In this document: one piece after another, positions 2,835 through 18,602 of the stretch | Layout: each line of letters begins with the position of its first letter | Position numbering within the stretch: position 1 is the stretch's first letter | DNA from: an uncultured virus (IMG/VR IMGVR_UViG_3300020349_000009) | Taxonomy: Duplodnaviria; Heunggongvirae; Uroviricota; Caudoviricetes | DNA length: 20,000 nt | Strand: one strand, 5' to 3' | Virus record (IMG/VR): IMGVR_UViG_3300020349_000009 | Program-made: the position numbers and the translations under genes | Notes under the pieces: model-generated | What the model saw: only the letters and a program-made list of their open reading frames with translations | Database searches by the model: none | What the model was told of the DNA's origin: nothing

Positions 2835-2847
2835 TTAGGAGAAAGAA

Positions 2848-4332: not shown

Positions 4333-4337
4333 TAATA

Positions 4338-5024: not shown

Positions 5025-5038
5025 AGGAAATATATAAT

Positions 5039-7033
5039 ATGTCTATTCAAGATGTAGGTCAGTCGTTATTAGCTAATGTTCGTGAGCGCAAAGATCAACA
5101 GTATGAGCAATATAAAAAAGATCAAAGAGATGCTCAAAGAACTGCGGATCGCAAAGAGCGTCAAGAGAAATTGCTTAATTATGGAATTGGGTTTTTAGTT
5201 GATGTAGGCAATAACATTGTTGCTAACAAAACAAAAGATTTTTTAACTTCTGAAGATCAACTTGCAAAAACAGCGAGCATTAAAAATGCTAACGCTTTTG
5301 CTCAAGACTATGCAAACACAGAAGCGCAAATAAAAGCTTATAGTGGCACTTCTCAAGATTATTTTGCTGAGCAAGCTTTGCCTACCGTTCAAACTTTAAT
5401 TAATACTAAGTATAGCGTAGGCTATAACGAAGCTGAAAAGCAAGCCGCTACGGCAGCTTTATCTATGAAGTATGGCAAGTCGCTCTACGATGCTCATGAA
5501 CTACAAAGAGGTGTTTACGATAGGCTAGTTGCAGGAGACGTAAACTTTATAGAATATAAAAAAGAAATAGCTGATCTTCAGCCTACAACTATGCTAGGCG
5601 CTTTAAAACAAAAAGCTGCTAGTTTGTTTAGTAAAGGCGAAGACATTGGTTATCAGACAGCAAGATCAATGGGCATGTTAGATATTGTAGATAGCGCATT
5701 AGATACTGATGACGATGGTATAGTTAGTGCGGAAGAAAGAGGCAAAAAAGCTTTTTATAATGTTTATCGGCAGTCAAAAAATAATATTTTTGCTACCCAC
5801 GATCTTCTTCAAGACCTTAAAGACGCAGGAATTAACATATCTAAAGCTACTCCAACGCTAGGTAAGCCTACTAATATTTATACAGTAAATGACTATGGAG
5901 AACAAAGACAAGTATCTATTCAAGAAAAAACAATTAATGGCGTTTCTGTTGGTTGGTATGAAGTAGGAACAGGCAACCCTTTTACAAGTCAAAATGGTGA
6001 AAGCGTTGACGTTTTAAAAGAAGCGGCAGTAGTACAGTTAGCTAAAGTTAAATCAATACAGCCTCAAATTAATGAACTTATAAACCAAAACGATGATGCA
6101 AGAGACGCTTGGTCAATAGCCATGAATGCTTTAATAGGAGATGCTTCAGATTCAACAGTACAAAAAGAACGTACAGAATTTGTTGAACGCAGAATGTTTT
6201 GGCCTATTACTAAGACAGCTAAGAAACTTCAAAATACTTATGGAGTAAGTAACCGAGCAGCAATGCAAATAGCTGTTGAGATGCACACTTTAAACTATGG
6301 GTTTATTGCAGAAAAAGGTGGTTTTTTTCGTCAGAAAGATGAAGTAGACATGAGCATGAGCTTGATGCCTGATTTAAAATGGAACAGTCAGCTTGCAGCC
6401 GCAGCGGTCTATAATATAGAACAAGACCAAAGATGGAGTTCGTATGTCCGAGTAAATGACTCGTCAGTAGGAGCAAATGATGGCCTTATGACTTCGTTAC
6501 TTAATGAGCCTCCAAAAGACATGTCCCTTAAACAAGTAGAGGCTTTTATTGGTGATGTAGAAGAAGGAGGCAAAGGTGGTTTCTTAGGTCAGGCTAGGTT
6601 TAGAGGTATGCCTTTTTACAGTGAAGTAACAAACCAAATAAAAGTACAACAAGTTAAAAACATTACTCAAGCTGAAGAATCTGTAAATACTTCACAAAGA
6701 GATTCGGTTGATGAAGTTGTTCAGTACTCTCAAGACGAAGCTAAACATTGGTTTATACAACATTTTGGAGCAAGTAGAGATTACGAAGATGCTATTAAAG
6801 CAACTCCAGAACAGCAACAAGCATTGATTAGAGCAACTGGTGGCGATGTTTATTTAAATAAACGTAGAAACAGAGAGCTTGTTCATCAAAAAGCTTACGA
6901 TTGGATTGGTAATAAATTATTAAAAGCTAAAGCTATTAGCGAACTAAGTCCTACTGATCAGTTGCTTTATAGAAGAAGCGAAGACAAAGACGCTTTCTTA
7001 GCTAATATTTACGGAGAAAAATTCAATGGTTGA
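5039..7033 (+). CDS. Putative internal virion protein (positional analogue of T7 gp15)
   Basis: 664 aa; AAGGA RBS; N-terminal coiled coil plus short hydrophobic segment; lies directly before the giant protein with an 8-nt overlap. Function inferred from position only. Confidence 0.6.
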   Translation: MSIQDVGQSLLANVRERKDQQYEQYKKDQRDAQRTADRKERQEKLLNYGIGFLVDVGNNIVANKTKDFLTSEDQLAKTASIKNANAFAQDYANTEAQIKAYSGTSQDYFAEQALPTVQTLINTKYSVGYNEAEKQAATAALSMKYGKSLYDAHELQRGVYDRLVAGDVNFIEYKKEIADLQPTTMLGALKQKAASLFSKGEDIGYQTARSMGMLDIVDSALDTDDDGIVSAEERGKKAFYNVYRQSKNNIFATHDLLQDLKDAGINISKATPTLGKPTNIYTVNDYGEQRQVSIQEKTINGVSVGWYEVGTGNPFTSQNGESVDVLKEAAVVQLAKVKSIQPQINELINQNDDARDAWSIAMNALIGDASDSTVQKERTEFVERRMFWPITKTAKKLQNTYGVSNRAAMQIAVEMHTLNYGFIAEKGGFFRQKDEVDMSMSLMPDLKWNSQLAAAAVYNIEQDQRWSSYVRVNDSSVGANDGLMTSLLNEPPKDMSLKQVEAFIGDVEEGGKGGFLGQARFRGMPFYSEVTNQIKVQQVKNITQAEESVNTSQRDSVDEVVQYSQDEAKHWFIQHFGASRDYEDAIKATPEQQQALIRATGGDVYLNKRRNRELVHQKAYDWIGNKLLKAKAISELSPTDQLLYRRSEDKDAFLANIYGEKFNG

Positions 7034-10000
7034 TTCTTTAGCTCAAAGAACATTAGACTTATATGCTCAAAGAGAGGCGGGAGGAGAAATTACTCCTGAA
7101 GATACTTTAATACAAACACAAGAAGAAGCAAACAATATTCAACGGTTATTAAAACAACCAAGAGACGTTACTGCTTTTGATCAAGATCCTGAAGTTCTTA
7201 AAGACTTTGAAACTGTAACAGACTACTTTGGTAACAACCAAACTTTCATGAGTGGTCTGCTTGATCCTGCAAGCATGTTTAATGATAGACCTTCTGAAGC
7301 TATGAGAGACGAGTTTAGAATTTCTACGCTTGCAAACAGAGCTATGGATATGAAAGATGCAACTCCAGAAGTTAAAGAGGCGTATAATAGACTTCGAGAA
7401 AAGTGGGAAGGCGCAGACATTCAAGGCTTTGACGAGTGGGCGGGTTTTGTAAAAGACTATGGCATAGATCTTATAGCTAATTTTGAAACAATACCAATGA
7501 TAGCTGCTGCTTTTTATTCAGGCGGAACTGCCCCTGCTGCTGCAAATGCAACGGTTAGGAAAGCTCTTCATAGCTCTTTAAAGAAAGGAGCTACAGCGGC
7601 CAGTAATAATCCGTTTAAGTTTGGTGCGGCCTATGGTGGTACGTTTAGTGGTGCTGCGGATATAGCAGCTCAGAATTTAAACATGAACTTAGATAATCAA
7701 GAAGAGTTTAGCTACGGTCAAAATGCTTTGTCTACTGGTCTGGGCGCTGTGCTAGGTGGGGGCATTAACTGGGGCTTGTCTAAAGTAATTAGCAAAGCGG
7801 CAACAAGACGAGCAGAGCGAGCGACCGATAATAATAGCGTTCCTTTATCGCAATCAAGAGGCTTAGAACTTTTTGATGAAGGAATAGAAGGCGAGTGGAT
7901 TCCTGCTTCTGGCGATGAAATACTTGATGGAGTAGATCAACTACTTGCAGGCAATAGATTTGCAAGAGAAGTAGATCTTGATGATATAGATCTAGGAGAC
8001 TTTGATGAAATCTTAGACGACTTTGTAGCTGATGTTGGTGGCGGTCAAGCTACACGAGATCAGTTAGATGAAGTTGTACTAGGCGAATTAAAGTCTGGAG
8101 CAACTGGAGAAGTTATAAAAAATAATATAGCTTTTGCCTTGTGGAAAACATCTACCGAGTTAATTGGCACAATGTTTGGTGGCAAGTCTTCAGGTATTCT
8201 TACAAGCTACGTGCCTTATTCAAAGACTGCTGAGACTTTAAGGCAGCGTTTGTCTTTTGACTTTGGCATAAAAGCTACTCAAAAACAAGACGAAGTGGTA
8301 GGCATGGACTTTGCTGAAGTAGCTCGAAGATATACTGGTATTTTTAGAGAAAGGTATAGAGAAGCTTTAGCTCCTGTTGGTTTAGATTCTGTAAATGGTT
8401 CAATTGAAGACAGCGTTAGTGGTGCATTAAATAGAGCTATTCGTGGTCAAATGTCTCCAGACATGACTATAAATACAGCGGCAAAAAACATACAGAACAT
8501 GTTTAAGCAGATAGGTGAAGAGCTACATGCGGCAGGTGTAATAGACGAAAAAGTAGAAAACTACATTCCTCGTATGTGGAACGGCAAAGCTATTAAAAAT
8601 AACAGAGATGAGTTTGAGCGTTTGTTAGTTGAAGAAGGCGAAGCTGATAGTTTAATAGAAGCACGAAGAATTGTAGATGAAATGCTAGATATTAAAAATC
8701 AGTTAGATGGTGGGACAACAGGGCATTTCTTTTCTTCTAAGCGTAAATTTACAGATATAAAAAATGAAGCTAAATTTACAGAGTTTTTAGAAGACGATTT
8801 GTTAAGCGTTATTGAAACTTATAACTTTCAAGCTGGTAAGTCTTTAGCTAAAGTAAAAGTATTTAAAGCTAGAAACGAAGAAGAGTTTAAAGAACAATGG
8901 TTAAATCCTATAGTAGCTGAAATGCAAAAGGCTGGAAGAACTTTAAGTCCAGCAGATAGAAAAAGAATTGTAAATCTTTATCGACTTACTACTGGAGAAA
9001 ACGTAGAGCGTTTTGGCAACTCGCTACAAACAGGAGTAGATGGGTATCAGTTAGCTACTCGTTTAGCAATGCTTCCATTAGCTACAGTAGGTAGTGTAAC
9101 TGAGATACTTATTAATCTTGGTAAAGGAGGAGTGTTAAATACTGCTAAAGGTTTTAAAGAAGCCTCCGAAGTAGCTTATAAAACTATTACAAATGACCTG
9201 CACTCAGAACTTAAAAACAGACATGGTTTAACAACTAATGAAGTATGGCGAGAGTTGCAGTCTTTTGGAAAAGCAATGGATCAGTCTGTAGGTCAAATAG
9301 GTAATCGTCTCGCAGGCGATGATTTAATCCACGAAGGGATGCAAGAAGTAAGCAATAAGTTTTTCCGTTTAAACTTGCTAGATCAATGGACAAAGTTTGT
9401 TCAAATATCTTCGTATGCTACAGGTAAAAATTTAATTGAAGATAATTTAAGAGCTATAGCTGCTCACGGATCTAAAGCTAGAACAGGCAAAATAGATTCA
9501 ATGCTTGGCGAATTAAATGAACTAGGCATAGACTATAAAGCTGGAGTAAATTGGATTAATAGTGGAGCAAAAAAATCTGACGATTACTATAAAGAATTTA
9601 CACGAGGCGCATCACGATATGTAGATGGCGTAATTTTACAGCCTACAGCAATGTCTAACTTAAAGCCAACTCTTTACTCTAATCCTAAGACTACTATTTT
9701 ATTTCAACTTTTAGGTTATCCAGCAGCTTTTACAAATACTGTTCTTAAAGGAGCTGCAAAGTCTGTAATGAAAGACCCTAAACGAAACGGTGCTAAAGTA
9801 ATGGGCGCTGCTTTGTCAATGACTGCGGCAGCTAGGTTCATGAACTGGGTACGTTCTCGTGGCGAAAGCGAAGCTTGGCACATAGATGAGTCAGAAAAAA
9901 ACCTAAGAGCTATTGCACGTTGGGGCGGTAATGGTTTATTTTTAGATACTTTTTCAAGATCTAAAAAGGAAGCTCTTTACGGTCAAAACCCTGCTGGCTA

Positions 10001-13000
10001 TCTTACAATGCCATTCGGCCCTTTTGCTGGAGAAATGTTAGACATAGCTAGAGGCAGACCTGCCGAAGTGCTTGGAAACAAAGTCCCTCTTGTTGGATTA
10101 GGTACAACTCTTTTTGGTCAGGACGCAATGCGTAAGTACCGTAAGACTTTAAAAAATATTGATAAAGGTATTTCTGACAAGTACGTTCCTGACTTTGAAT
10201 ATAACGTAGGCAAAGAAATGTTTTCTAAAGGTGGCGAAGTTGAAATAGCTAGAGCAGCTTCAGAGCCTGATGAAAGAATGAATAAAGTAACAGGCGTACC
10301 TTACAACGTAGAAGCTGGCACAGCCTTTATGGACGAGCTTGATGAAGGAAGAACCGAGCGCTTTGGTTTTAATATAGGCGGTAAGATAGGTCAAAAATTA
10401 TCTTCTAAATTGGCTGAAGAAATAAATGTGCATACAGAAGGCTTGTTTAATTCTAAAGCTATTAATAATGTAGCGGACGACATTAATGAAACTGTTACTC
10501 TTGGAGGAAACCTTAAAGGCATACAAGACGCACCAGCTACTACAGACGACTTTGATACTTTAAGTTTACAAAGTATGTTTACTGACGAATACGATTTTGA
10601 CGAATATGTAGACGTTGTAACTAAATCAGTTCTTGAAGGAAATGTGTCGTCTAATGAACTGCTTACAGAACTTGCAGAAGAAATAGATCCAAATTACGAA
10701 ATGTTTGGAGCAATTAATGCGTCCCTTGAAAATTTAAAAATTAAAAAAGATAACTTGCTTCGGCCTGAGTTTAAAGATTTAAATTTAGGAGAAGAAGAAG
10801 AGTTAATTGAGCCTCTTACTAAATTTGTAAGTAAGCATATTAGCAAGATGTACTCTAATACTTTAAGTAAAGAAGGCGCAGAAAAAGCAGCTAAGCAGCA
10901 CATAGCTAATTTAATAGTTAAAGCTGACGCAGATGATGAGATGGCTGGGTTTATAAAAGAAACTGCGGAAATAACTCCAATAGATAGAAATAGTGATGTT
11001 GCAATTGCAGCTAATAAAAATTTAAATGTTTCTAAAGAAGAATTTATTGCTGACTCAGAAGTCACAGTCCCAGTATTTAGAGGTGTGTCTAGTTTTAATA
11101 ATCATAACTACGATATTGCGTATGCCTTTCCACGAGAAATGGGAGTCCATTACGGCAATCAAGGTCAAGCAAACTACCAAGCTTTAAAAGAAATTAATTT
11201 TGATAGTGCCGTAGATAATTTTGCTTTGGCTGCAACAGGCAGGCAGAGAGTAAGTAAAAAAGCAATGTTTGATACGTTTAGAAAAGAAATGGAAAAAAAT
11301 AAAAACTTAACTAATCAAGGTTTTGAAGAAGATGTTCCTCCTGTAACTATATTAAAAGGTTATTTAAATATTAAAAATCCTTTGTTTATAAACTCGGATA
11401 TGGGATCTTGGAGCGTAGACAATCTTTTAACTAAAGACTATGACTTAGTAGAAAATGCGATAGAAGATGAACTTGGTAGAGAACTTAATGATATTGAAAT
11501 AAATTTAATAGATGAAATGTCTTTTAGAGCTGTTGCTCTTGAATCTAAATTTATTCTTGAAGCTTCAGAAGATGCAAACAGTGGAGGAACAAACAAGGTT
11601 CAAAACGAAATTGCAATGCTTCTTGATCATGCAAGACTAACAAAAGATTTTCAAAGTTTCTTAAAAGGTTTAGGTTTTGATGGCATTAAATACAAAAATC
11701 AAGTAGAGCCACCGTTCCAAGGCGAAGAGTTTTATTCATATATTGCTTTTGACCCACAGCAGTTTAAAAATGCAAGCGCTGCTAAGTTTGATTTAAATGA
11801 TCCTAGAGATATGTACTCTGAAGGCGGATCAGTTATAGCTAGGAAGCTTGGTATTCCTGACGAAGCTTTGTCGTGGGCTAGAAGCCAACGAGATAGGTTT
11901 CCAAAGAGCGAAAGCTATGACGGAATCGGAGATGCGGCAGCTCATTTAGCTCTTGGTTTTATAACTAAAAATGCTAAATATCCTAAAGCTGCTTTGTTTG
12001 CAGCAAACGCTAGGGAGTTTGTAACTCTTGATCATGTTGGCGGCAAGATGGATATTCATAACAATAAACTAGGTTCTCAAATAAAGGCTAGGGATTTTAA
12101 ACAAGCAGAGCAGGTCATTGATAAATTAATAGCAGACCGAAAAGCTGTATTTATGACTCCATCTGAAAGTAAAGCAAGACGAGGCTACAGTGAAGGAGGC
12201 CAAACTTCATATACAGTTGAGTCTGGAGATACTTTAACATCTATAGCTAGGGATGCTGGCACAACAATAGAAGCTATAATGGGCGTTAATGATATTAAAG
12301 ATGCTAATTTAATTTATGTAGATCAAAAGATTGTATTGCCTACAGAAAAAACATTTGAAGAAAATAAAGTAGTTAGTTCTCTTTCTTCAATGCGTGAAAA
12401 ACAAGGAAGAAACAATAAGGCAGGAAAGGCGCTTAATAGACTCCGTAAACTTCGTCAAGATTCAGGCATATCGTCAGATACTTTAAAGGCTTTAAAAAAC
12501 ATTAAAGAAAGATTAGTGCCTAAAGAAAAAGAGCCTGAAGAAAAAAGTTTTATTGCAAGCATACGGCAGGCCGCAAACAATCAAGTGGTTAGGAACTTTG
12601 CAGATTTCTTTAATCCGTTTCAAGGAGACAAGACAGAAGCAGACTACAACCCAAGTGTAATTGAAGCGTTGCGTTTTGCAGCAAAGAGCGCTTTAAACAA
12701 AGGTAAATTTAATATTGACTACAGTGATTACAATTTACAAGAGTCTAATGTTAGAGGTCAAGTAGCTTATCCAGAGCAAAGAGAACGAGACAATCTGCAA
12801 GCTCGTATGATTCGAGGCGACATTACGCCTACAGAAGAAGCGGCTTTTTCAGTAGGTGGCGCTCAGCTTGCTGTTGAAGACGGCAAAGTATACGTTACAG
12901 ATGTCTATAACTTTAATAACATAGGCGAGCGTATATCTACAGCACTGCCTGACAACTACACTAAACTTAGGACTCTTATGGGTAAGATTAAAATACCTAC

Positions 13001-14723
13001 TAATGACTATAAGAGCAAAATATATGTAGGAGAATTAGATGAGCTTCAAGACAACAGCAGATCTAAAGTAAACATAGGCGGCAAGATTGCTGCAAAATTA
13101 GCTCCTCGTATGGCAGAAGGTTTTTATAGCCCTTTAGAAAAAGCAGCATTGAATCTTACTCGTGAAAAAGGTACGGGTAATTCGTTCCTGCAAGATTTAA
13201 AAAAAGGCGACAAGGGCAGAGTAACTGACGAAGAATTACTTTTTACAGGCGTACAAAACAAACTGAAAGGTTTGCCTAGTACAACAAAAGAAGAAGTTCA
13301 AAAAGTTGTTTCCGATAATAAAATTGAGTTAGATACTCTTAGAGGTAAAAGAGGATTGACGCTAGAAGAACAAGGTTTTGATGAGCTTTCTTTTAACGAA
13401 GCTGTTGAAGAACATGGTCTGTATGCTTTTGATGATAATTTTGTCCGTAGCACTTTAACTCCAGCACTGTTAAGAAAAGTTGAAGCTGGTATAATAGATC
13501 CTAATGATCCTAAATATGTTGAGCCATTAAAAAAAATGTATTTAGCTAAGATGACTAGAGTAGCTAAAAAAGACATAGGCGAAAAATCAGGGGGCAAGTA
13601 TGCCTTTGCGGCTGAGTTTTCAGATTATACACTAGCTAGTCAAGCTGGCTATGAGCCTTCTAATTACAGAGTTATTGCACTGCGTACTCCAAAAGACACA
13701 GGCAACCCTATGTTAGATAATATTTCTCATGCAGAACCCGAGCATTTTGGCGCTGTTCTTGAAAACACTAATGAGTCAATTGATAATATCATAGCGCATA
13801 TTAGGGTTACTGACGGTTTAAGTGGCGACAATTTTAATAAGACAACTATGTTAATAGAGGAGATACAATCTGATTATCATAAGCAAGGCGGCAAACACGG
13901 GTATACTAAAATAGATAAGCCCCTTCCTTATAATAAAGAAGAAAAAGAAAAAATTTTTATGACAGAATCAATGAAATTTTACGATGGTTATTTAAAAGAA
14001 GTAAAAAAATACTATGATGACTTTGAAGAAGCAGACAAATTAGCTGAAGAATTTTCTGATGACGCTGCTGTTATAATACAAAATTTATTAGATGCTAAAG
14101 TACCTGCAAAAGAAATTAAAATGTTTTCTGATAAATTTCTTGAAGTTAAAAATAAAGAATTAAAACTCCAACAAGAATATGTCAAGGCAGTAACGGAGAA
14201 AAAACCATTAGCGGTTGCAACGGAATTTCAAGCAGAAATATATTCTTTAAACAAAAAATTTATAAAGGATTTAAATGAAGTAAGTCCAGAAGTACATAAT
14301 ATTTATTTAGACTATGAAGATGTTGCTGTTCGAGAGTCTTTAGATGCTGTTGTTGATGCTCCGTTTAAAAATAGCTGGCCTCGATTAACCCTAAGCAAAG
14401 CTCTTATTGAAGCTGTTGAACATGGAAACAAACGAATTGCTTTAACTACAGGCAAGTCTCAAGCTGAAAGATATATAGATGAAATGGGGAATAAACAAGT
14501 AGGCTTAGGTGAAAAGTATGATACTAAGTTCTTAAAGCAGTTCAAGAAGCTTGGCAGTAAATACAATTCAAAAGTAAATGTAGAAGAAGTTGGCGTTGCT
14601 ATAGACGGCAATGAAGTATTAGCAACTGAGCCTATGTATGTTATGGATATAACGCCAGAGCTAGAAAATGCTGTGCGGCAAGGGTTACGGATGTTTTATG
14701 AAGGAGGTTTGATTGATGCCTAA
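7026..14723 (+). CDS. Giant internal virion/polyvalent protein: helical core (gp16-like position) + ART-like, DUF6973-like, LysM and EEIQSD modules
   Basis: 2565-aa uninterrupted ORF with GGAG RBS; N-terminal ~1060 aa helical with Gly/Ala-rich membrane-like segments and an 'ENYIPRMW' motif; C-terminal half has recognisable domain signatures (listed separately). Confidence 0.8.
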   Translation: MVDSLAQRTLDLYAQREAGGEITPEDTLIQTQEEANNIQRLLKQPRDVTAFDQDPEVLKDFETVTDYFGNNQTFMSGLLDPASMFNDRPSEAMRDEFRISTLANRAMDMKDATPEVKEAYNRLREKWEGADIQGFDEWAGFVKDYGIDLIANFETIPMIAAAFYSGGTAPAAANATVRKALHSSLKKGATAASNNPFKFGAAYGGTFSGAADIAAQNLNMNLDNQEEFSYGQNALSTGLGAVLGGGINWGLSKVISKAATRRAERATDNNSVPLSQSRGLELFDEGIEGEWIPASGDEILDGVDQLLAGNRFAREVDLDDIDLGDFDEILDDFVADVGGGQATRDQLDEVVLGELKSGATGEVIKNNIAFALWKTSTELIGTMFGGKSSGILTSYVPYSKTAETLRQRLSFDFGIKATQKQDEVVGMDFAEVARRYTGIFRERYREALAPVGLDSVNGSIEDSVSGALNRAIRGQMSPDMTINTAAKNIQNMFKQIGEELHAAGVIDEKVENYIPRMWNGKAIKNNRDEFERLLVEEGEADSLIEARRIVDEMLDIKNQLDGGTTGHFFSSKRKFTDIKNEAKFTEFLEDDLLSVIETYNFQAGKSLAKVKVFKARNEEEFKEQWLNPIVAEMQKAGRTLSPADRKRIVNLYRLTTGENVERFGNSLQTGVDGYQLATRLAMLPLATVGSVTEILINLGKGGVLNTAKGFKEASEVAYKTITNDLHSELKNRHGLTTNEVWRELQSFGKAMDQSVGQIGNRLAGDDLIHEGMQEVSNKFFRLNLLDQWTKFVQISSYATGKNLIEDNLRAIAAHGSKARTGKIDSMLGELNELGIDYKAGVNWINSGAKKSDDYYKEFTRGASRYVDGVILQPTAMSNLKPTLYSNPKTTILFQLLGYPAAFTNTVLKGAAKSVMKDPKRNGAKVMGAALSMTAAARFMNWVRSRGESEAWHIDESEKNLRAIARWGGNGLFLDTFSRSKKEALYGQNPAGYLTMPFGPFAGEMLDIARGRPAEVLGNKVPLVGLGTTLFGQDAMRKYRKTLKNIDKGISDKYVPDFEYNVGKEMFSKGGEVEIARAASEPDERMNKVTGVPYNVEAGTAFMDELDEGRTERFGFNIGGKIGQKLSSKLAEEINVHTEGLFNSKAINNVADDINETVTLGGNLKGIQDAPATTDDFDTLSLQSMFTDEYDFDEYVDVVTKSVLEGNVSSNELLTELAEEIDPNYEMFGAINASLENLKIKKDNLLRPEFKDLNLGEEEELIEPLTKFVSKHISKMYSNTLSKEGAEKAAKQHIANLIVKADADDEMAGFIKETAEITPIDRNSDVAIAANKNLNVSKEEFIADSEVTVPVFRGVSSFNNHNYDIAYAFPREMGVHYGNQGQANYQALKEINFDSAVDNFALAATGRQRVSKKAMFDTFRKEMEKNKNLTNQGFEEDVPPVTILKGYLNIKNPLFINSDMGSWSVDNLLTKDYDLVENAIEDELGRELNDIEINLIDEMSFRAVALESKFILEASEDANSGGTNKVQNEIAMLLDHARLTKDFQSFLKGLGFDGIKYKNQVEPPFQGEEFYSYIAFDPQQFKNASAAKFDLNDPRDMYSEGGSVIARKLGIPDEALSWARSQRDRFPKSESYDGIGDAAAHLALGFITKNAKYPKAALFAANAREFVTLDHVGGKMDIHNNKLGSQIKARDFKQAEQVIDKLIADRKAVFMTPSESKARRGYSEGGQTSYTVESGDTLTSIARDAGTTIEAIMGVNDIKDANLIYVDQKIVLPTEKTFEENKVVSSLSSMREKQGRNNKAGKALNRLRKLRQDSGISSDTLKALKNIKERLVPKEKEPEEKSFIASIRQAANNQVVRNFADFFNPFQGDKTEADYNPSVIEALRFAAKSALNKGKFNIDYSDYNLQESNVRGQVAYPEQRERDNLQARMIRGDITPTEEAAFSVGGAQLAVEDGKVYVTDVYNFNNIGERISTALPDNYTKLRTLMGKIKIPTNDYKSKIYVGELDELQDNSRSKVNIGGKIAAKLAPRMAEGFYSPLEKAALNLTREKGTGNSFLQDLKKGDKGRVTDEELLFTGVQNKLKGLPSTTKEEVQKVVSDNKIELDTLRGKRGLTLEEQGFDELSFNEAVEEHGLYAFDDNFVRSTLTPALLRKVEAGIIDPNDPKYVEPLKKMYLAKMTRVAKKDIGEKSGGKYAFAAEFSDYTLASQAGYEPSNYRVIALRTPKDTGNPMLDNISHAEPEHFGAVLENTNESIDNIIAHIRVTDGLSGDNFNKTTMLIEEIQSDYHKQGGKHGYTKIDKPLPYNKEEKEKIFMTESMKFYDGYLKEVKKYYDDFEEADKLAEEFSDDAAVIIQNLLDAKVPAKEIKMFSDKFLEVKNKELKLQQEYVKAVTEKKPLAVATEFQAEIYSLNKKFIKDLNEVSPEVHNIYLDYEDVAVRESLDAVVDAPFKNSWPRLTLSKALIEAVEHGNKRIALTTGKSQAERYIDEMGNKQVGLGEKYDTKFLKQFKKLGSKYNSKVNVEEVGVAIDGNEVLATEPMYVMDITPELENAVRQGLRMFYEGGLIDA
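11040..11804 (+). other. ADP-ribosyltransferase-like domain (ART-PolyVal type) within the giant protein
   Basis: Ordered motifs PVFRG, MGVHYG, GYLNIKNPL, GFDGIKYKN, YIAFDPQQFK...FDLNDP match the ART domain pattern of phage polyvalent proteins (YHGT...G.yF...YL...nP...GyDG...vF.p.QIK...FD). Boundaries approximate. Confidence 0.7.
11835..12176 (+). other. DUF6973-like helical domain within the giant protein
   Basis: DGIGDAAAH...ANARE...MDIHNNKLG resembles the DAxRH...HE...MDLHNNxxG signature. Confidence 0.55.
12210..12341 (+). other. LysM peptidoglycan-binding domain within the giant protein
   Basis: YTVESGDTLTSIARDAGTTIEAIMGVNDIKDANLIYVDQKIVLP is a canonical 44-aa LysM consensus match. Confidence 0.95.
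13089..14684 (+). other. C-terminal 'FYSxLE...EEIQSD...APF' module of unknown, possibly enzymatic, function
   Basis: Motifs GFYSPLE, NYR, HF, AHIR, LIEEIQSD (EEIQSD at 13857-13874), DAPFK, QAERY; a pattern I recall from large phage virion/polyvalent proteins, family name not certain. Confidence 0.55.
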
Positions 14724-15066
14724 GTTTAAATATTTTAGCATAGACGAGTTTAATTGTCAAGAGACAGGAGAAAATAATATAAGTGAAGAGTTTATACACA
14801 GGCTTGACGAGCTTAGGGAGGCGTGTGGGTTTTCGTTCACTGTTACTTCTGGCTATCGTAGTCCTAATCATAGCATTGAAAAGCGCAAGTCTAAAGCAGG
14901 CACTCATGCTCAAGGCATTGCCGCAGACATCAGAGTCTCTGGCGGTGGTCAGCGAAGAACAATAATTGAAGAGGCTTTGAAGCTAGGCTTTAATGGTATA
15001 GGAGTAGCTAAGTCTTTTGTTCATGTAGACATTAGAGAAACTACTCCTGTAATATGGTGCTATTAA
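14716..15066 (+). CDS. Peptidase M15 (D-Ala-D-Ala carboxypeptidase-like) zinc peptidase, probable endolysin
   Basis: SGYRS, HxxGxAxD (HAQGIAAD) and FVHVD motifs; AAGGAGG RBS at 14701-14707 favours ATG 14716 over TTG 14713; adjacent to a holin-like gene. Confidence 0.9.
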   Translation: MPKFKYFSIDEFNCQETGENNISEEFIHRLDELREACGFSFTVTSGYRSPNHSIEKRKSKAGTHAQGIAADIRVSGGGQRRTIIEEALKLGFNGIGVAKSFVHVDIRETTPVIWCY

Positions 15067-15067
15067 T

Positions 15068-15445
15068 ATGTTTAATTTTACATCACTGATTGCTCCAGTT
15101 GCAAACTTAGTAGGTTCGCATTTAAATAACAAGAAAGAAGAAAAGCAAGCTAAGCACAAAGCTAAACTAGCTGTCATAGAAAACAACGCTGATTGGGAAT
15201 CTAAGATGGCTGATGCGTCTGCTAACTCTTGGAAGGACGAGTTCTGGACTATTGTGCTTTCTGTGCCTATCTTTATGATTGGCTATGCAATAGCGGCTAA
15301 TGACGTTGCTGTAATCGAAAGAGTTACTTTAGCTTTTGCAGCTTTAAATGACTTGCCTGAATGGTATCAGTATCTTTTATTCATAGCTATCTCTAGTAGC
15401 TTTGGAATAAGAGGCGCTAAAAGTTTAATGAATATGAGGAAATAA
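15068..15445 (+). CDS. Holin-like membrane protein (3-TM GTA-holin-like, 'SWKDE' type)
   Basis: 125 aa; N-terminal amphipathic helix, SWKDEFWTIVLSVPIFMIGY and LPEWYQYLLFIAISSSFGIR hydrophobic segments, basic C-terminus; 1 nt after the endolysin stop. Confidence 0.7.
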   Translation: MFNFTSLIAPVANLVGSHLNNKKEEKQAKHKAKLAVIENNADWESKMADASANSWKDEFWTIVLSVPIFMIGYAIAANDVAVIERVTLAFAALNDLPEWYQYLLFIAISSSFGIRGAKSLMNMRK

Positions 15446-15448
15446 TAT

Positions 15449-15763
15449 ATGGATATGGAAAATGTTCCTATGGTTAGATTAACTTGGGAAGATGCTCAAG
15501 ACTCTGATGGAGCTTGGACAGACATTGAAGATATTTTAAAACACGAATGCGCTATATGCCAAGAAGTTGGTTGGCTTGTATATAACAGCGATGATAAAGT
15601 AATAGTAATGAGATCTAGGATAGTAGCTGAAGAGCTAGAAGAAGGTGGAGCTTTTGTAACTATCCCTAAGACTTGGGTAATGAAAATAGAAGAGTTGACA
15701 GTAAATGAAGAGACTAATAGCATTAGTAATTTTAGTTCTTATAAGTCCGTACACGCACAGTAG
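15449..15763 (+). CDS. Conserved phage hypothetical protein (small beta-rich domain, possibly Sm/SH3-like)
   Basis: 104 aa; GAGG RBS; VRLTWEDA...W...CQEVGWLV...TIPKTWV pattern. Confidence 0.65.
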   Translation: MDMENVPMVRLTWEDAQDSDGAWTDIEDILKHECAICQEVGWLVYNSDDKVIVMRSRIVAEELEEGGAFVTIPKTWVMKIEELTVNEETNSISNFSSYKSVHAQ

Positions 15764-16274
15764 TGGCAGTGAAGCAACTGTAGGGGACTTTGGAACTAAT
15801 CAACAAGCAGAAACTATTACAACCACAACCGAAACTACAGTGAACCAAGAAGGTATGCCTGTCACTACAGCAGTAGCGCCAGCAACTCCGACATATCAAG
15901 CAGATACCTGTATTGTTACGTCAGGTTCAGGCGTACAAACTTTGCAAATAGGAATTAGTACGTCTAAGATGAAAGTTGATGAGAACTGCGAGCGTTTAAA
16001 ATTAAGTCGTCAGCTTTCACAATTAGGTTTAAAAGTAGCCGCCACGAGTGTTCTTTGTCAGGACAATCGAGTATGGTGGGCTATGAGAAACGCCCAAACG
16101 CCCTGCCCCATCAAAGGAAAAATAGGAGATGAAGCCCTTGAATACTATATCCAAAACCCTGAGTACGTCCCTGATCGCCCTGTCGTTATCAAGTCTGACA
16201 AGTGCGGGGGAGAACGACTTCGATATGACCCAATTAAGCGAAAGCACATCCGTAATAACGACTGTAATAAATAG
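15705..16274 (+). CDS. Exported cysteine-containing protein of unknown function
   Basis: 189 aa; signal-peptide-like MKRLIALVILVLISPYTHS; Thr-rich linker; six Cys including DENCERLKLS, LCQDNRV and TPCP. Confidence 0.75.
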   Translation: MKRLIALVILVLISPYTHSSGSEATVGDFGTNQQAETITTTTETTVNQEGMPVTTAVAPATPTYQADTCIVTSGSGVQTLQIGISTSKMKVDENCERLKLSRQLSQLGLKVAATSVLCQDNRVWWAMRNAQTPCPIKGKIGDEALEYYIQNPEYVPDRPVVIKSDKCGGERLRYDPIKRKHIRNNDCNK

Positions 16275-16950
16275 TAACATGCAAGAGTATATTCAGTGGA
16301 CTACACAGTCTATGCTGGATGGTAATACAATTATCTATAACAACGATGATGGTACACAATATGAGCTAACACCAGAACAGATGAACACATTTAACCAAGC
16401 TTATGCTGACGGTTTAGCGAACAGCACACCAGAGGCTCTAACAGCCGTTCTACTGAACGATATGATTGACGTAGAGCAGGGTACATATGAGGAGGAGAAA
16501 GGAGATCTGATTGAAGCTGCAAGCGAGATAGCGGCTGTTACAAGTATAGCTGAGATGATTGTTGATGGTGATCAGCAGACTAAGATTAATGCAGAAGCGT
16601 ATGCAACTGAGAATGATTTACGGGCTATTAAAGAGTCTAGTCGTCAGCAGTTCAACACCAGCATTGACGGTATGCTTGAGGCCAGTATGACTAAGAACAT
16701 GATCGAGGGATATGCTCAAGACTCATTTGTTATAGATACTATAGCCGCCTCATTTATGAACACAGGTACAGTCATGGACTTCTTTACTAACACTTCAGTT
16801 TCTATAGATTCCTTGATACCAAGCCAGCTTAATCTTCAGTGGATGGAGAGTAGTGTAGGTGTCGAGAGTGCCATGTACTTGATGTACAACAACAACCCAA
16901 TGTACCCAGAAATGCAAACTAAACCATTACCAATAGGAGAACAACCATGA
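16129..16950 (+). CDS. Exported acidic helical protein of unknown function
   Basis: 273 aa; AAGGA at 16114-16118; signal-peptide-like MKPLNTISKTLSTSLIALSLSSLTSA; stop overlaps the next start (ATGA). Start site less certain because of the 146-nt overlap. Confidence 0.7.
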   Translation: MKPLNTISKTLSTSLIALSLSSLTSAGENDFDMTQLSESTSVITTVINSNMQEYIQWTTQSMLDGNTIIYNNDDGTQYELTPEQMNTFNQAYADGLANSTPEALTAVLLNDMIDVEQGTYEEEKGDLIEAASEIAAVTSIAEMIVDGDQQTKINAEAYATENDLRAIKESSRQQFNTSIDGMLEASMTKNMIEGYAQDSFVIDTIAASFMNTGTVMDFFTNTSVSIDSLIPSQLNLQWMESSVGVESAMYLMYNNNPMYPEMQTKPLPIGEQP

Positions 16951-17330
16951 AACCACAAGACGTAGCCTTATGGATAGGTATAGCAAGTTCAATAGGCGGT
17001 GCGGCAGTTGGCTATGGAACACTAACTGAGAAGGTATCTACATTAGAAGCTAGTACAGATGCCACTCATCTTGAAGCAAGATTAACTAAACTAGAAACGA
17101 GGATAGAAGATAATGATATATCACACATTGGTACAGAAATGCAAGAGCTTCGTGGACACATTGAAAACAATACCGACAAAGTTAAAAGCATTGTTGTCCC
17201 GAATACGAGCAAAATTAAATCAGATGTACGGCTCCTTCAAGAGCAAGTTAAAGACCTTAAAGTCGCAATTAAAATAACAAATGATCAAATAAAAGCTATA
17301 AATAGCAAACCAGATAATCCTCTTTTATAG
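16947..17330 (+). CDS. Membrane-anchored coiled-coil protein (N-terminal TM, C-terminal NPLL)
   Basis: 127 aa; AGGAG RBS; VALWIGIASSIGGAAVGYG followed by heptad-rich helices. Confidence 0.75.
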   Translation: MKPQDVALWIGIASSIGGAAVGYGTLTEKVSTLEASTDATHLEARLTKLETRIEDNDISHIGTEMQELRGHIENNTDKVKSIVVPNTSKIKSDVRLLQEQVKDLKVAIKITNDQIKAINSKPDNPLL

Positions 17331-17731
17331 TGGCTTATAGCAAAGAAGTAATAGATCATTACGAAAATCCAAGGAACGTAGGTAAATTAGATATAGAAGA
17401 TAAGTCTGTTGGTACAGGCATGGTCGGTGCGCCAGCTTGTGGTGATGTTATGAAATTGCAGATAAAGGTTAAAGATAACATAATTGAGGACGCTAAATTT
17501 AAAACTTATGGTTGTGGTTCTGCTATTGCTAGTAGTAGTCTTCTCACAGAGTGGATCAAGGGCAAATCTCTTGACAGTGCCGCAACAATCACAAATGAGG
17601 CTATTGCAGACGAGCTTGCTTTACCACCAGTTAAAATCCACTGTTCTGTTTTGGCCGAAGATGCCGTAAGATCTGCGATAAATGATTATAAGGAGAAAAA
17701 CAATGCCGATGAAAAAAAAACCTACGCCTAG
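17330..17731 (+). CDS. iscU: Fe-S cluster assembly scaffold protein IscU (phage auxiliary metabolic gene)
   Basis: MAYSKEVIDHYENPRNVG, GAPACGDVM, FKTYGCGSAIASSS, LPPVKIHCS: all three Cys, the Asp, the His and the HscA-binding LPPVK motif are intact; GTG start overlaps the upstream TAG. Confidence 0.97.
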   Translation: MAYSKEVIDHYENPRNVGKLDIEDKSVGTGMVGAPACGDVMKLQIKVKDNIIEDAKFKTYGCGSAIASSSLLTEWIKGKSLDSAATITNEAIADELALPPVKIHCSVLAEDAVRSAINDYKEKNNADEKKTYA

Positions 17732-17918
17732 AATTAAGAAAAGCGCAGGCTCAACAGTAAACAAAGCTGGTAATTATACTAAGCCTACTATGCGTAAGAA
17801 TTTATTTAACAAGATAAAGGCTGGTAATAAGGGCGGCAGTTCAGGTCAATGGTCTGCACGTAAAGCTCAGATGCTGGCTAAAGAATACAAAGCTAAAGGC
17901 GGAGGTTATAAGTCATGA
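17703..17918 (+). CDS. Small basic protein, similar to the N-terminal part of DUF5872-type proteins
   Basis: AGGAG at 17691-17695 supports ATG 17703 (71 aa); YTKPTMR...GNKGG..GQWSARKAQMLAKEYKAKGGGY signature. Confidence 0.75.
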   Translation: MPMKKKPTPRIKKSAGSTVNKAGNYTKPTMRKNLFNKIKAGNKGGSSGQWSARKAQMLAKEYKAKGGGYKS

Positions 17919-18058
17919 AGGTTAAAGCACCAGCAGGTTTTCATTGGATGAAACAAAAAGATGGAAGCATGAAGCTTATGAAACATAAAGGTAAGTTTGT
18001 TAAGCATAAAGGCGCTTCTCTCGAAGCAAACTTTGCAGTTCAAAAGGTACATAAGTAA
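17915..18058 (+). CDS. Small basic Lys/His-rich protein (47 aa), not in the ORF track
   Basis: MKVKAPAGFHWMKQKDGSMKLMKHKGKFVKHKGASLEANFAVQKVHK; GGAGG RBS at 17901-17905; ATGA overlap with the upstream stop and TAATG overlap with the downstream start, filling the gap exactly. Confidence 0.85.
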   Translation: MKVKAPAGFHWMKQKDGSMKLMKHKGKFVKHKGASLEANFAVQKVHK

Positions 18059-18315
18059 TGGCTGGATTAAAGAAACCTCAGAAGTCTTTAAAGAAATGGA
18101 CTAAACAAGATTGGAGAACTAAGTCTGGTAAACCTAGTACTCAAGGCGCTAAGGCTACAGGAGAACGCTATCTCCCTGCTAAAGCTATCAAGTCTATGTC
18201 TAGCAAAGAGTATTCTGAAACGTCAGCTAAGAAACGCAAAGACACTAAAGCTGGTAAGCAACATAGCAAACAGCCTAAAGCAATCGCAAGAAAAACTCGG
18301 AGGCATCGTAAGTAA
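18058..18315 (+). CDS. Small basic protein, similar to the C-terminal part of DUF5872-type proteins
   Basis: 85 aa; QKSLKKWTKQDWRTKSG...GERYLPAKA...KKR...GKQ signature; TAATG coupling at both ends. Confidence 0.75.
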   Translation: MAGLKKPQKSLKKWTKQDWRTKSGKPSTQGAKATGERYLPAKAIKSMSSKEYSETSAKKRKDTKAGKQHSKQPKAIARKTRRHRK

Positions 18316-18602
18316 TGGCCAAGAAAAAAGATCCACGCTTAGCAAGAGCTGGCGTAACAGGGTTCAATAAACCTAAACGAACCCCTTCACACAAAACTAA
18401 ATCGCACGTTGTTGTAGCAAAGCAAGGTGATCAGATAAAGACTATACGTTTTGGTCAGCAGGGCGTAACAGGAGCTGGCAAGAATCCTTCAAGTGCAAAG
18501 GACAAGGCTCGTAAGAAGTCTTACTACGCTCGCCACAATGCACAAGACTCTAGCCCTAGTAAACTATCAGCTCGTTACTGGTCGCACAAAACTAAGTGGT
18601 AG
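18315..18602 (+). CDS. Small basic phage protein ('IRFG...ARH...ARYWS' family)
   Basis: 95 aa; GGAGG RBS; KTIRFGQQG...RKKSYYARH...SARYWSHKTKW, a motif set I recall from small viral proteins of unknown function. Confidence 0.75.
   Translation: MAKKKDPRLARAGVTGFNKPKRTPSHKTKSHVVVAKQGDQIKTIRFGQQGVTGAGKNPSSAKDKARKKSYYARHNAQDSSPSKLSARYWSHKTKW

What the first reader, a model, noticed from the sequence alone, without database searches (positions are those of the whole stretch)
10212..14723. A recurring [RK]xx[FYV]xxGG motif marks the module junctions of the 2565-aa virion protein: candidate effector polyprotein
Seen: six copies at KEMFSKGGEV (10212-10241), RFGFNIGGKI (10359-10388), RDMYSEGGSV (11805-11834), RRGYSEGGQT (12177-12206), RSKVNIGGKI (13059-13088) and LRMFYEGGLI (14685-14714, two residues before the stop). 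They fall directly after the helical core, directly after the last ART motif, directly before the first LysM residue, just before the FYSPLE module and at the C-terminus. Copies 4, 5 and 6 each deviate at one position. Inference: the motif is a protease cleavage site (di-Gly ends recall ubiquitin-like and viral polyprotein processing) or a capsid-packaging/ejection tag, so one gene yields a core ejection protein plus about five separable cargoes. I do not know of a description of this motif as a module delimiter, but cannot exclude one.
Basis: partly seen in the sequence, partly recalled or inferred. Interest (0 to 1): 0.9.

Follow-up and report, generated by a model that had tools for sequence, protein, structure and literature searches.

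The report
Shared junction tag in phage cargo proteins
A short glycine-centred peptide motif marks the flexible joints and ends of the modules of a giant injected phage protein and also occurs in a second head protein, so it is probably a shared loading or processing signal for proteins carried inside the capsid, though which of the two is not yet shown.

Summary
ORF 7026-14723 (2565 aa) has five exact [RK]xx[FYV]xxGG copies plus one deviant copy 4 aa from the C-terminus. Shuffles expect 0.23 (0 of 3000 reach 5).

The motif is conserved in 62 homologues down to about 33% identity. Its consensus is R-x-[GM]-[FY]-[ANS]-x-G-[GS]-x-[VI]. All six copies lie in or next to low-confidence linkers or tails of two AlphaFold models.

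Cutting homologues after each motif yields reusable modules: core, 49-aa peptide, weak ART-like, DUF6973-like, LysM-containing, and a roughly 500-aa widespread domain. Two of them occur in both orders. BLAST homology breaks pile up 0-5 aa after the GG.

The motif is not confined to this gene. The 530-aa protein encoded just after the portal, and 42 of 59 of its homologues, carry it, often at the extreme N-terminus.

No protease other than an M15 cell-wall peptidase was detected in the reconstructed genome of about 50.5 kb.

Best reading (0.45): a linear tag of capsid-internal proteins, read by one common partner for loading or tethering, and possibly also cleaved. The main rival (0.30) is a polyprotein cleavage site. 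The cleavage-versus-tag question is unresolved. I rate it a new variant of a known kind.

The parts
7026..14723 (+). Giant internal-virion (IVP-D-like, polyvalent) protein gene, 2565 aa
   Evidence: ORF list and translation. phrog_7348 E 6.7e-287 and phrog_6958 'virion structural protein' E 8.5e-17. tblastn to structural proteins of Slicky01 and LUZ24-like phages. 63 homologues.
7026..10235 (+). Module A: conserved core (aa 1-1070), ending in motif copy 1
   Evidence: Present in 62 of 62 homologues, occupancy about 1.0. The Slicky01 homologue is core only and has no motif.
10212..10235 (+). Motif copy 1, KEMFSKGG (aa 1063-1070)
   Evidence: PWM 22.5. Core conserved in 61 of 62. Lies in the pLDDT<50 segment 25-53 of model 1.
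10236..10382 (+). Module E: conserved but disordered 49-aa peptide between copies 1 and 2 (..PNAP.EPDER..TG.PY..)
   Evidence: Segment cluster E, 19 members of 45-50 aa. pLDDT < 50. Alignment.
10359..10382 (+). Motif copy 2, RFGFNIGG (aa 1112-1119)
   Evidence: PWM 21.4. Lies in the pLDDT<50 segment 77-93 of model 1.
10383..11828 (+). Module C (aa 1120-1601): helical region plus alpha/beta domain, weakly ART-like
   Evidence: PF18760 ART-PolyVal E 3.6e-4, below cut-off. PARP-domain rows Z 4.6-4.7 and cyanophage A4 pre-ejectosome chain Z 5.3. Cluster C, 41 members.
11805..11828 (+). Motif copy 3, RDMYSEGG (aa 1594-1601), the best-scoring copy; the family-wide conserved region ends here
   Evidence: PWM 32.6. 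Occupancy drops from 0.88 to 0.27 right after it. Lies in the pLDDT<50 segment 568-571.
11829..12200 (+). Module F (aa 1602-1725): small helical domain, DUF6973-like
   Evidence: PF22322 E 1.6e-4, below cut-off. VIA Z 8.9, rmsd 3.6, 116 aligned to the B. fragilis T6SS effector BteO. Cluster F, 10 members of 124-148 aa.
12177..12200 (+). Motif copy 4, RRGYSEGG (aa 1718-1725)
   Evidence: PWM 20.9. Next to the pLDDT<50 segment 690-693 of model 1.
12201..13082 (+). Module D (aa 1726-2019): LysM (aa 1729-1772) plus an unassigned alpha/beta domain
   Evidence: PF01476 E 9.7e-13. LysM structures Z 9.0, rmsd 1.2. In homologues this slot carries lysozyme or pesticin families (precomputed Pfam).
13059..13082 (+). 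Motif copy 5, RSKVNIGG (aa 2012-2019), the weakest copy
   Evidence: Regex hit. PWM only 7.5. Lies in the pLDDT<50 segment 312-334 of model 2.
13083..14708 (+). Module B (aa 2020-2561): widespread roughly 500-aa domain, possibly a GNAT-like fold with a helical insert; always ends in KGLP[MQ]FAEGG-type motif
   Evidence: 3477 representatives at E<=1e-3. GNAT-fold rows Z 7-8.3, borderline. Cluster B, 42 members.
14685..14708 (+). Motif copy 6, LRMFYEGG (aa 2554-2561), 4 residues from the C-terminus
   Evidence: PWM 21.1. Core conserved in 47 of 49 aligned homologues. Tail pLDDT < 50 from model residue 860.
14713..15066 (+). Neighbouring gene: M15 peptidase (MepK-like cell-wall endopeptidase), probably the endolysin; the only peptidase found in the phage
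   Evidence: PF08291 E 4.4e-10, phrog_894 endolysin E 6.7e-33, weak NF053624 MepK hit.
17682..17918 (+). Small basic protein (phrog_17747) with a weak motif-5-like sequence (TPRIKKSAGSTVNK) near its N-terminus; membership uncertain
   Evidence: PWM 11.2, kept in relatives L002-L004. ORF and PHROG. An equally weak hit in the RNR gene shows that scores this low also arise by chance.

Best explanation
The motif (consensus [DK]-x-R-x-[GM]-[FY]-[ANS]-x-G-[GS]-x-[VI]) is a short linear peptide tag. It lies in the disordered joints and termini of proteins that travel inside the capsid of this marine podovirus lineage. In the 2565-aa internal virion protein, one copy ends each module. The same tag sits at the N-terminus and inside the variable protein encoded just after the portal. 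I propose that one common partner reads all copies during head assembly, most plausibly the inner face of the HK97-fold capsid shell or the scaffold/portal core. On that reading the tag acts as a multi-copy loading and tethering signal that brings each passenger module into the procapsid and keeps it ordered until ejection. It may also be trimmed or cut at the glycines, as the T4 capsid-targeting sequence is. Shown: the motif is real and conserved, it lies in linkers and at termini, it is modular, it is shared between two protein families, and no recognisable protease is present. Inferred: the partner, the loading role and any cleavage.
For: The motif is far above chance and conserved at 33-91% identity while the surrounding linker sequence is not alignable. 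Five GG pairs lie in pLDDT<50 segments and the sixth lies beside one, while only 10-14% of model residues are below 50. It behaves as an autonomous element. It occurs 4-6 aa from the C-terminus in 10 of 62 family members. It occurs as tandem copies 8-12 aa apart in several homologues. It occurs at residues 5-20 of post-portal proteins, for example MLLQDDRKKYAAGG and MSLLNNDREQYSTGS. It is shared with a second, unrelated head-module family: 42 of 59 unique homologues have a PWM>=8 hit, 62 hits against 1 in shuffles. In the genome it is confined to these two proteins at PWM>=12. It also appears in other proteins that carry the B domain: 26 of 148 listed, 36 hits against 2 shuffled. Some of those are clearly the same family or contig-end fragments. 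No prohead or other protease was found among 42 ORFs scanned with Pfam and PHROGs, of which 19 plus five module segments of the giant protein were also scanned with NCBIfam. No peptidase family is listed among the precomputed Pfam domains of the homologues. The G-S subclass (YALGSIVKK, FALGSVVRG) resembles the encapsulin targeting peptides GSLxIGSLK, LTVGSLRR and TVGSLIQ. Those bind the interior P-domain of an HK97-fold shell (PMC10960027, passages read). This phage's capsid protein is HK97-type (phrog_267 E 2.3e-68).
Against: No binding partner has been shown. An invariant first glycine with a small second residue is the classic signature of a narrow protease cleft rather than of a docking groove. 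The core-only homologue of phage Slicky01 (1223 aa) has no motif, so the core can evidently be packaged without it. Terminal LysM/lysozyme-type modules carry no terminal copy, so not every module needs one. The resemblance to encapsulin peptides covers only the G-S subclass and about five positions. Many ORFs of the phage have no assigned function and could hide a protease.
Confidence: 0.45

Rival explanations
1. The motif is an endoproteolytic cleavage site, cut at or after the glycines. The giant protein would then be a polyprotein released as a core ejection protein plus separate periplasmic (LysM/hydrolase) and cytoplasmic (ART-like, GNAT-like) effectors. The N- and C-terminal copies would be trimmed like T4 head-protein propeptides. 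The protease would be a host enzyme or an unrecognised phage protein.
For: The first G is invariant (146 of 146 unique sites) and the second position is G, S or T in 145 of 146, with conserved positions running from -6 to +3. The motif sits exactly at module boundaries, and homology breaks 0-5 aa after the GG (1114 of 5145 internal HSP ends). The modules have different likely destinations: LysM in the periplasm, ART-like in the cytoplasm. The polyvalent-protein paper argues that such proteins must be processed into units (PMC5512222, passages read).
Against: No protease domain was found in the phage genome of about 50.5 kb or listed for the giant-protein family. In particular, the MPTase that the polyvalent-protein model invokes is absent. 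A strongly conserved copy 4 aa from the C-terminus (47 of 49) would release only a tetrapeptide. IVP-D proteins are thought to carry lysozyme and cytoplasmic passenger domains uncleaved (PMC4819975, passages read).
Confidence: 0.3
2. The motif has no specific partner. It would be a conserved flexible hinge or joint of the linkers, with Gly-Gly flanked by anchoring residues. It could help the long chain to unfold and thread through the tail, or be kept because module swapping by recombination happens there.
For: It always lies in low-confidence linkers. Modules are exchanged and reordered exactly there.
Against: The six copies share no DNA-level identity (different Gly codons). Homologues keep the peptide while the flanking linker sequence diverges beyond alignment, which argues for selection on the peptide itself. 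A passive hinge does not explain the conserved Arg at -6, the aromatic at -3 and the Val/Ile at +3. It also does not explain copies at the extreme termini of two protein families.
Confidence: 0.15
3. Chance or compositional artefact: glycine-rich linkers happen to match a pattern chosen after the fact.
For: The regex was defined post hoc. Copy 5 is weak (PWM 7.5). Equally weak matches occur in unrelated genes such as RNR and DNA polymerase.
Against: 0 of 3000 shuffles reach the observed count. There are 180 PWM hits in 62 homologues against 1-3 in shuffles, though that PWM was trained on this family. Two test sets not used for training are also enriched: 62 against 1 and 36 against 2.
Confidence: 0.02

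Closest known systems
T4 capsid targeting sequence (CTS) of internal proteins IPI-III and Alt (from my own knowledge; no paper read here)
   Same: A short peptide shared by several unrelated proteins that are packed in the head and injected with the DNA. It is terminal, and it combines targeting with removal by cleavage. One T4 cargo (Alt) is an ADP-ribosyltransferase.
   Different: The T4 CTS is N-terminal only and is cut at (L/I)-x-E by the prohead protease gp21. Here the sequence is different, the copies are internal, N- and C-terminal and multiple, and no prohead protease gene was found.
Encapsulin targeting peptides (GSLxIGSLK, LTVGSLRR, TVGSLIQ; PMC10960027, passages read)
   Same: Short Gly-Ser-centred peptides with flanking hydrophobic and basic residues, on flexible linkers at cargo termini, that dock on the inner face of an HK97-fold shell. 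The G-S subclass here (YALGSIVKK, FALGSVVRG) has the same hydrophobic/G/S/hydrophobic/basic pattern.
   Different: Most copies here are G-G with an aromatic at -3 and an Arg at -6. They occur in a tailed phage, mostly between modules of one giant protein. No binding to the capsid protein has been shown.
Polyvalent proteins of phages and conjugative elements (Iyer et al. 2017, PMC5512222; passages read)
   Same: A giant virion-delivered protein that strings together effector-type domains (ART-PolyVal-like, peptidoglycan-targeting, others) with mosaic architectures.
   Different: That work proposes release of the domains by an embedded zincin-like MPTase, and none is present here. A search of that paper's main text found no use of the word 'linker', and the passages I read describe no junction motif. 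Its supplementary files were not opened.
T7 gp16 / IVP-D family internal virion proteins with passenger domains (Hardies et al. 2016, PMC4819975; passages read)
   Same: A large core protein encoded in the tail/internal-protein gene block that carries lysozyme-type and cytoplasm-destined passenger domains. Residues 468-929 match structural proteins of LUZ24-like phages and Slicky01.
   Different: Direct homology to T7 gp16 was not tested. The passages I read of that paper do not mention a recurring delimiter motif.
Viral polyprotein Gly-Gly sites (adenovirus protease, ASFV pS273R, ubiquitin-like processing; from my own knowledge)
   Same: Gly-Gly with an upstream hydrophobic residue marks the boundaries of virion core polyprotein products.
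   Different: Those systems encode a cognate cysteine protease and none was detected here. The hydrophobic residue is at a different spacing, and 20% of sites here have S, T or K in place of the second Gly.
Junction motifs of polymorphic toxins (Rhs DPxGL, CdiA VENN; from my own knowledge)
   Same: A conserved peptide marks the point where a conserved core gives way to interchangeable C-terminal modules.
   Different: The sequence and the carrier differ. Here there are several junctions per protein, plus terminal copies and copies in a second protein.

Membership tests
Polyvalent proteins (Iyer et al. 2017) | Several unrelated effector-type domains in one polypeptide of a phage or conjugative element | tested here: met
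   Six modules separated by low-pLDDT linkers. Modules recur independently in homologues. LysM E 9.7e-13.
Polyvalent proteins (Iyer et al. 2017) | Signature domains such as ART-PolyVal or LPD families | tested here: inconclusive
   PF18760 E 3.6e-4, 21.7 bits against a cut-off of 31.2. PARP-fold rows only Z 4.6-4.7. A B-domain relative, P0068, carries ART-PolyVal (E 1.9e-14) and LPD38.
Polyvalent proteins (Iyer et al. 2017) | Embedded MPTase (zincin-like) peptidase proposed to process the protein | tested here: not met
   No peptidase family in P0001 by Pfam, PHROGs or NCBIfam. None is listed among the precomputed Pfam domains of the homologues.
IVP-D / T7 gp16-like internal virion protein | Sequence relationship to established IVP-D-group structural proteins | tested here: inconclusive
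   tblastn aa 468-929 to Slicky01 (E 8e-17) and LUZ24-like phages (E 1e-8 to 6e-6) at 23-24% identity. phrog_6958 virion structural protein E 8.5e-17. No direct test against T7 gp16.
IVP-D / T7 gp16-like internal virion protein | Encoded in the late structural block downstream of the tail genes | tested here: met
   Order TerL, portal, P0224, scaffold-like, MCP, adaptor, nozzle-like, 1277 aa..., 664 aa, giant gene, lysis peptidase.
T4-type capsid targeting sequence | Removed by a phage prohead protease | tested here: not met
   No prohead protease family in 42 ORFs of the genome of about 50.5 kb. Unassigned ORFs remain.
T4-type capsid targeting sequence | Necessary and sufficient for incorporation of a protein into the head | not testable with these tools
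   Needs expression and packaging assays.
Encapsulin targeting peptide | Short conserved Gly/Ser-centred peptide on a flexible linker at a cargo terminus | tested here: inconclusive
   Terminal and linker copies. The pattern match is limited to the G-S subclass. Comparison is with the consensus quoted in PMC10960027.
Encapsulin targeting peptide | Binds the interior of an HK97-fold shell protein | not testable with these tools
   The capsid protein is HK97-type, but binding could not be established here.
Viral Gly-Gly polyprotein processing (clan CE type) | Virus-encoded cognate cysteine protease | tested here: not met
   None found by Pfam, PHROGs or NCBIfam.
Self-cleaving G|S motifs (SEA-domain type, recalled) | Ser/Thr/Cys nucleophile directly after the glycine | tested here: not met
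   The second position is Gly in 116 of 146 unique sites and S/T in 29. All six copies in the window are G-G.

The most novel reading that the evidence does not exclude
Tailed phages of this abundant marine lineage load their internal cargo with an encapsulin-like targeting-peptide system. On this reading, multiple copies of one Gly-centred peptide dock each passenger module of the giant ejection protein, and other head-internal proteins, onto the inner surface of the HK97-fold capsid. The motif would then be the phage counterpart, and perhaps the evolutionary source, of encapsulin cargo loading, and a ready-made handle for packing foreign proteins into phage heads.
Probability: 0.2. Interest if true: 0.85.

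Novelty: new variant of a known kind. Interest (0 to 1): 0.62.

Why it matters
Little is known about how podoviruses choose and arrange the proteins they carry inside the capsid and inject, or about how giant polyvalent proteins are assembled from modules in evolution.

A single conserved peptide here marks every module joint. It also tags a second head protein in a lineage whose capsid gene has at least 591 relatives in IMG/VR. That gives a concrete, mutable handle for testing loading against processing.

It also gives a rule for reading the architecture of thousands of unannotated giant viral ORFs: cut at the motif. If it proves to be a loading tag, it could be used to pack chosen proteins into phage particles.

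Tried and rejected
- **Complex prediction.** I ran capsid protein (alignment A3) + scaffold-like protein (A4) + giant-protein linker aa 1055-1125 as partner. The verdict was 'no answer' (score 0.00, mark 0.32, controls not run). This counts neither for nor against binding.
- **Fold searches.** Foldseek against the PDB with both models found nothing at E<=0.001 except the LysM-type rows. The VIA wide searches gave only borderline rows: GNAT-like for module B, BteO-like for module F, PARP-like for module C. The models hold several domains each, so single-domain folds were poorly tested.
- **Split forms of module B.** A search among shorter proteins gave one hit (P0065). It starts inside a motif and is probably a truncated gene call.
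- **Cultured phages.** tblastn of module B against cultured phages found no match, so no virion proteomics exists to consult. A cluster look-up gave no organism names.
- **ESM Atlas with module B.** Only unnamed viral clusters came back.
- **Literature.** The searches for a described motif found nothing relevant among the rows listed. One search listed 25 of 611 papers, and all matches were unrelated words.
- **DNA-level repeat or recombination signal.** Rejected, because the copies use different codons.
- **SEA-type self-cleavage.** Rejected, because most copies have no nucleophile.
- **M15 peptidase as the processing enzyme.** Considered because Gly-Gly can mimic D-Ala-D-Ala, then set aside. 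It looks like an ordinary endolysin.
- **Module B as the receptor for the motif.** Set aside, because family members without B still carry motifs.
- **Earlier notes of this scan.** Look-ups by place and by sequence returned nothing.
Full report
**What is there**

The window is the late region of a phage. All genes from 564 to 18602 lie on the + strand. ORF 7026-14723 encodes 2565 aa. Pfam sees only a LysM domain at aa 1729-1772. PHROGs place aa 47-1607 in phrog_7348 (E 6.7e-287) and aa 626-916 in a 'virion structural protein' family. tblastn against cultured phages finds only distant matches (23-24% identity, aa 468-929). These are to structural or hypothetical proteins of Pseudoalteromonas phage Slicky01 and LUZ24-like Pseudomonas phages.

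The window overlaps the IMG/VR record held as G001. The window starts at G001 position 30526. G001 begins with the N-terminal part of a ribonucleotide reductase gene and the window ends in its C-terminal part. Together they therefore give an essentially complete, circularly permuted genome of about 50.5 kb.

This genome encodes the following:
- T7-like replication genes.
- A large terminase and an SU10-type portal and adaptor.
- An HK97-type capsid protein (phrog_267, E 2.3e-68).
- A block of unassigned large proteins upstream of the giant gene.

The capsid protein has at least 591 relatives in IMG/VR at about 70% identity, so the lineage is abundant.

**Checking the observation**

The six coordinates are correct. 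Five copies fit [RK]xx[FYV]xxGG exactly. The sixth (LRMFYEGG) deviates and lies 4 residues from the C-terminus.

Shuffling the protein gives a mean of 0.23 matches, and 0 of 3000 shuffles reach 5. Because the pattern was picked after the fact, I relied on homologues instead.

A word-indexed search returned 63 proteins, P0002-P0064. I kept 62 proteins of 33-91% identity for the family, counting the query and leaving out P0063 and P0064, which match only a small part.

A position weight matrix built from the regex seeds and iterated gave 180 hits in the 62 proteins, against 1-3 in shuffled copies. This is partly circular, because the matrix was trained on this family.

In the alignment, the core [FYWLM]xxG[GST] is present at the aligned site as follows:

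| Copy | With core / aligned |
|---|---|
| 1 | 61 of 62 |
| 2 | 42 of 60 |
| 3 | 48 of 56 |
| 4 | 11 of 16 |
| 5 | 2 of 10 |
| 6 | 47 of 49 |

The consensus is [DK]-x-R-x-[GM]-[FY]-[ANS]-x-G-[GS]-x-[VI]. The first G is invariant in 146 of 146 unique sites. The second position is G in 116, S in 25, T in 4 and K in 1. Copy 5 is the weakest (PWM 7.5). The six copies use different glycine codons, so the repeat exists at the protein level only.

**Relation to domain boundaries**

Two AlphaFold models were made with family alignments. One covers aa 1031-1790 (mean pLDDT 77). The other covers aa 1700-2565 (mean pLDDT 79). Both show confident domains separated by short segments with pLDDT below 50.

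The GG pairs of copies 1, 2, 3, 5 and 6 lie inside such segments. Copy 4 lies directly next to one. Only 14% and 10% of model residues are below 50. Other low-confidence segments carry no motif: model 1 residues 130-141 and 397-404, and model 2 residues 77-100 and 128-138. So not every linker is tagged.

**Modularity**

I cut every homologue after each PWM hit and clustered the pieces. This gave recurrent units:
- **A**: core, 1052-1128 aa when cleanly cut.
- **E**: a 45-50 aa disordered but conserved peptide.
- **C**: about 520 aa.
- **F**: 124-148 aa.
- **D**: LysM or lysozyme-containing, variable.
- **B**: about 500 aa.

The orders differ between family members. The window's protein and P0005, P0006, P0008 and P0014 read ..D|B. 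P0025-P0055 mostly read ..B|D. Others end in D or in a short H unit.

Family-wide conservation stops exactly at copy 3: occupancy falls from 0.88 to 0.27.

I took 7467 internal BLAST HSP endpoints beyond residue 1000, from pairs at or below 70% identity. Of these, 24% lie within 5 aa of a motif's second G, against 2.6% of random positions. HSP ends pile up 0-5 aa after the GG (1114 of 5145). The pairs are not phylogenetically independent, so these are descriptive figures and not probabilities.

Module B always ends in a KGLP[MQ]FAEGG-type copy, whether it is internal or 4-6 aa from the C-terminus. Terminal D modules have no terminal copy.

**What the modules are**

- **C** gives a sub-threshold ART-PolyVal hit (E 3.6e-4) and weak PARP-fold rows (Z 4.6-4.7).
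- **F** gives a sub-threshold DUF6973 hit. It also gives Z 8.9 (rmsd 3.6, 116 aligned) to the Bacteroides T6SS effector BteO.
- **D** holds LysM. In homologues the same slot holds phage lysozyme or pesticin families.
- **B** is a very widespread domain, with 3477 representatives at E<=1e-3. It gives a consistent set of borderline GNAT-fold rows (Z 7-8.3).

These assignments are weak. Both models contain several domains each, which blunts fold searches.

**The motif outside the giant gene**

In the window's six frames, strong hits occur only in the giant ORF. In the whole reconstructed genome, the only other ORF with a PWM>=12 hit is the 530-aa protein P0224, encoded directly after the portal. 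P0224 carries IGRFGFDEGGMPVD, an N-terminal KYAVGSVAQK and YAYGSMV.

I found P0224 homologues in loci fetched through the capsid gene. Among 59 unique homologues:
- 42 have at least one PWM>=8 hit, 62 hits in all against 1 in shuffles.
- 24 have a motif within the first 30 residues, for example MLLQDDRKKYAAGGITKI and MSLLNNDREQYSTGSIVKK.

This family was not used to build the matrix, so it is an independent confirmation.

Among 148 further proteins that share the B domain, 26 carry PWM>=12 hits (36 hits against 2 shuffled). Some lie near N- or C-termini. Some of these proteins belong to the same family or are contig-end fragments.

The Slicky01 homologue, which is core only, has no motif.

**Is there a protease?**

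The Pfam and PHROG scans covered 15 window ORFs and 27 G001 ORFs. The NCBIfam scan covered 19 of those ORFs plus five module segments of the giant protein. The only peptidase found is the M15 (MepK-like) peptidase next to the giant gene, which looks like the endolysin. No peptidase family is listed among the precomputed Pfam domains of the homologues. Several large ORFs remain unassigned, so a novel protease cannot be excluded.

**Interpretation**

The motif is an autonomous short linear element, selected at the peptide level. It lies in disordered joints and at both kinds of termini, and it is shared by two unrelated families of head-associated proteins.

I think it most likely (0.45) that one common partner reads it during head assembly, as a multi-copy loading or tethering tag. 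It may additionally be trimmed.

Two precedents exist:
- The T4 capsid targeting sequence (recalled, no paper read).
- Encapsulin targeting peptides, whose consensus GSLxIGSLK / LTVGSLRR / TVGSLIQ and binding to the interior of an HK97-fold shell I read in passages of PMC10960027. The G-S subclass of the present motif has the same pattern.

The main rival (0.30) is a cleavage site that turns the protein into a polyprotein. The invariant glycines, the exact boundary position and the argument of PMC5512222 (passages) that polyvalent proteins need processing favour it. The missing protease, the conserved copy 4 aa from the C-terminus, and the view that IVP-D proteins carry uncleaved passenger domains (PMC4819975, passages) count against it.

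A passive hinge or recombination joint (0.15) does not explain the conserved Arg, aromatic and Val/Ile positions or the terminal copies. Chance is excluded for practical purposes.

**Novelty**

Giant modular virion proteins, capsid-targeting peptides and Gly-Gly processing sites are all known kinds.

I found no description of this motif, or of any junction motif in such proteins, in the following:
- Passages of PMC5512222 (the word 'linker' occurs 0 times in its main text).
- Passages of PMC4819975.
- The paper searches, where I read listings only.

I did not open supplementary files of those papers, and a description there cannot be excluded.

An earlier unchecked AI note of this scan (e1-5975408) reports an analogous glycine-hinged boundary motif in the cargo proteins of a crass-like phage. 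It is a lead, not evidence, and I did not test it. I rate the present finding a new variant of a known kind.

Noticed in passing
G001 19714-21306 (outside the window; locus L008 714-2306): A 530-aa protein is encoded between the portal and the scaffold-like gene. It has acidic ends and a very basic middle, and it carries motif copies. Its conserved C-terminal stretch (..SDSIPARLSDGEFVFTAKAV..) matches only short regions of tape-measure PHROGs. In relatives the family varies from about 200 to 785 aa. Its position recalls SPP1 gp7/MuF-type head proteins (recalled).
   Followed up: partly
window 17682-17918 and 18058-18315: These are small, very basic proteins (phrog_17747, phrog_14910). The first has TPRIKKSAGSTVNK near its N-terminus, close to the junction sequence TPRVKKNLGSIVSK of homologue P0014. 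The N-terminus of the second (KKPQKSLKKWTKQDWRTKSGKPSTQG) is found fused to the front of post-portal proteins in loci L020, L043 and L073. They may be further capsid-internal proteins.
   Followed up: partly
window 10236-10382: A 49-aa segment between motif copies 1 and 2 is predicted disordered yet strongly conserved (..VPNAP.EPDER....TG.PY..). It is present in 19 homologues. It may be a second linear motif with its own partner.
   Followed up: no
window 13083-14708: Module B is a very widespread unannotated viral domain, with 3477 representative proteins at E<=1e-3 and no Pfam family in 24 relatives tested apart from neighbouring domains. It gives borderline GNAT-fold matches that include the tRNA-acetylating toxins TacT and AtaT (Z 7.4-7.9).
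   Followed up: partly
window 11829-12200: Module F (DUF6973-like) gives its best fold match to the Bacteroides fragilis T6SS effector BteO (Z 8.9, 116 aligned, rmsd 3.6).
   Followed up: no
window 17330-17731 and 18810-20000: The phage carries a NifU-like Fe-S scaffold gene (PF01592, E 4.4e-52) and a ribonucleotide reductase gene. The reductase gene joins the start of G001, which shows the genome is circularly permuted and about 50.5 kb long.
   Followed up: partly
loci L010, L038, L052, L067, L068, L086 (post-portal proteins): Several post-portal proteins start with an EF-hand/dockerin-like loop (..DLNKDGKVTQADVLKGRGVFAEGG..) placed directly in front of a motif copy.
   Followed up: no
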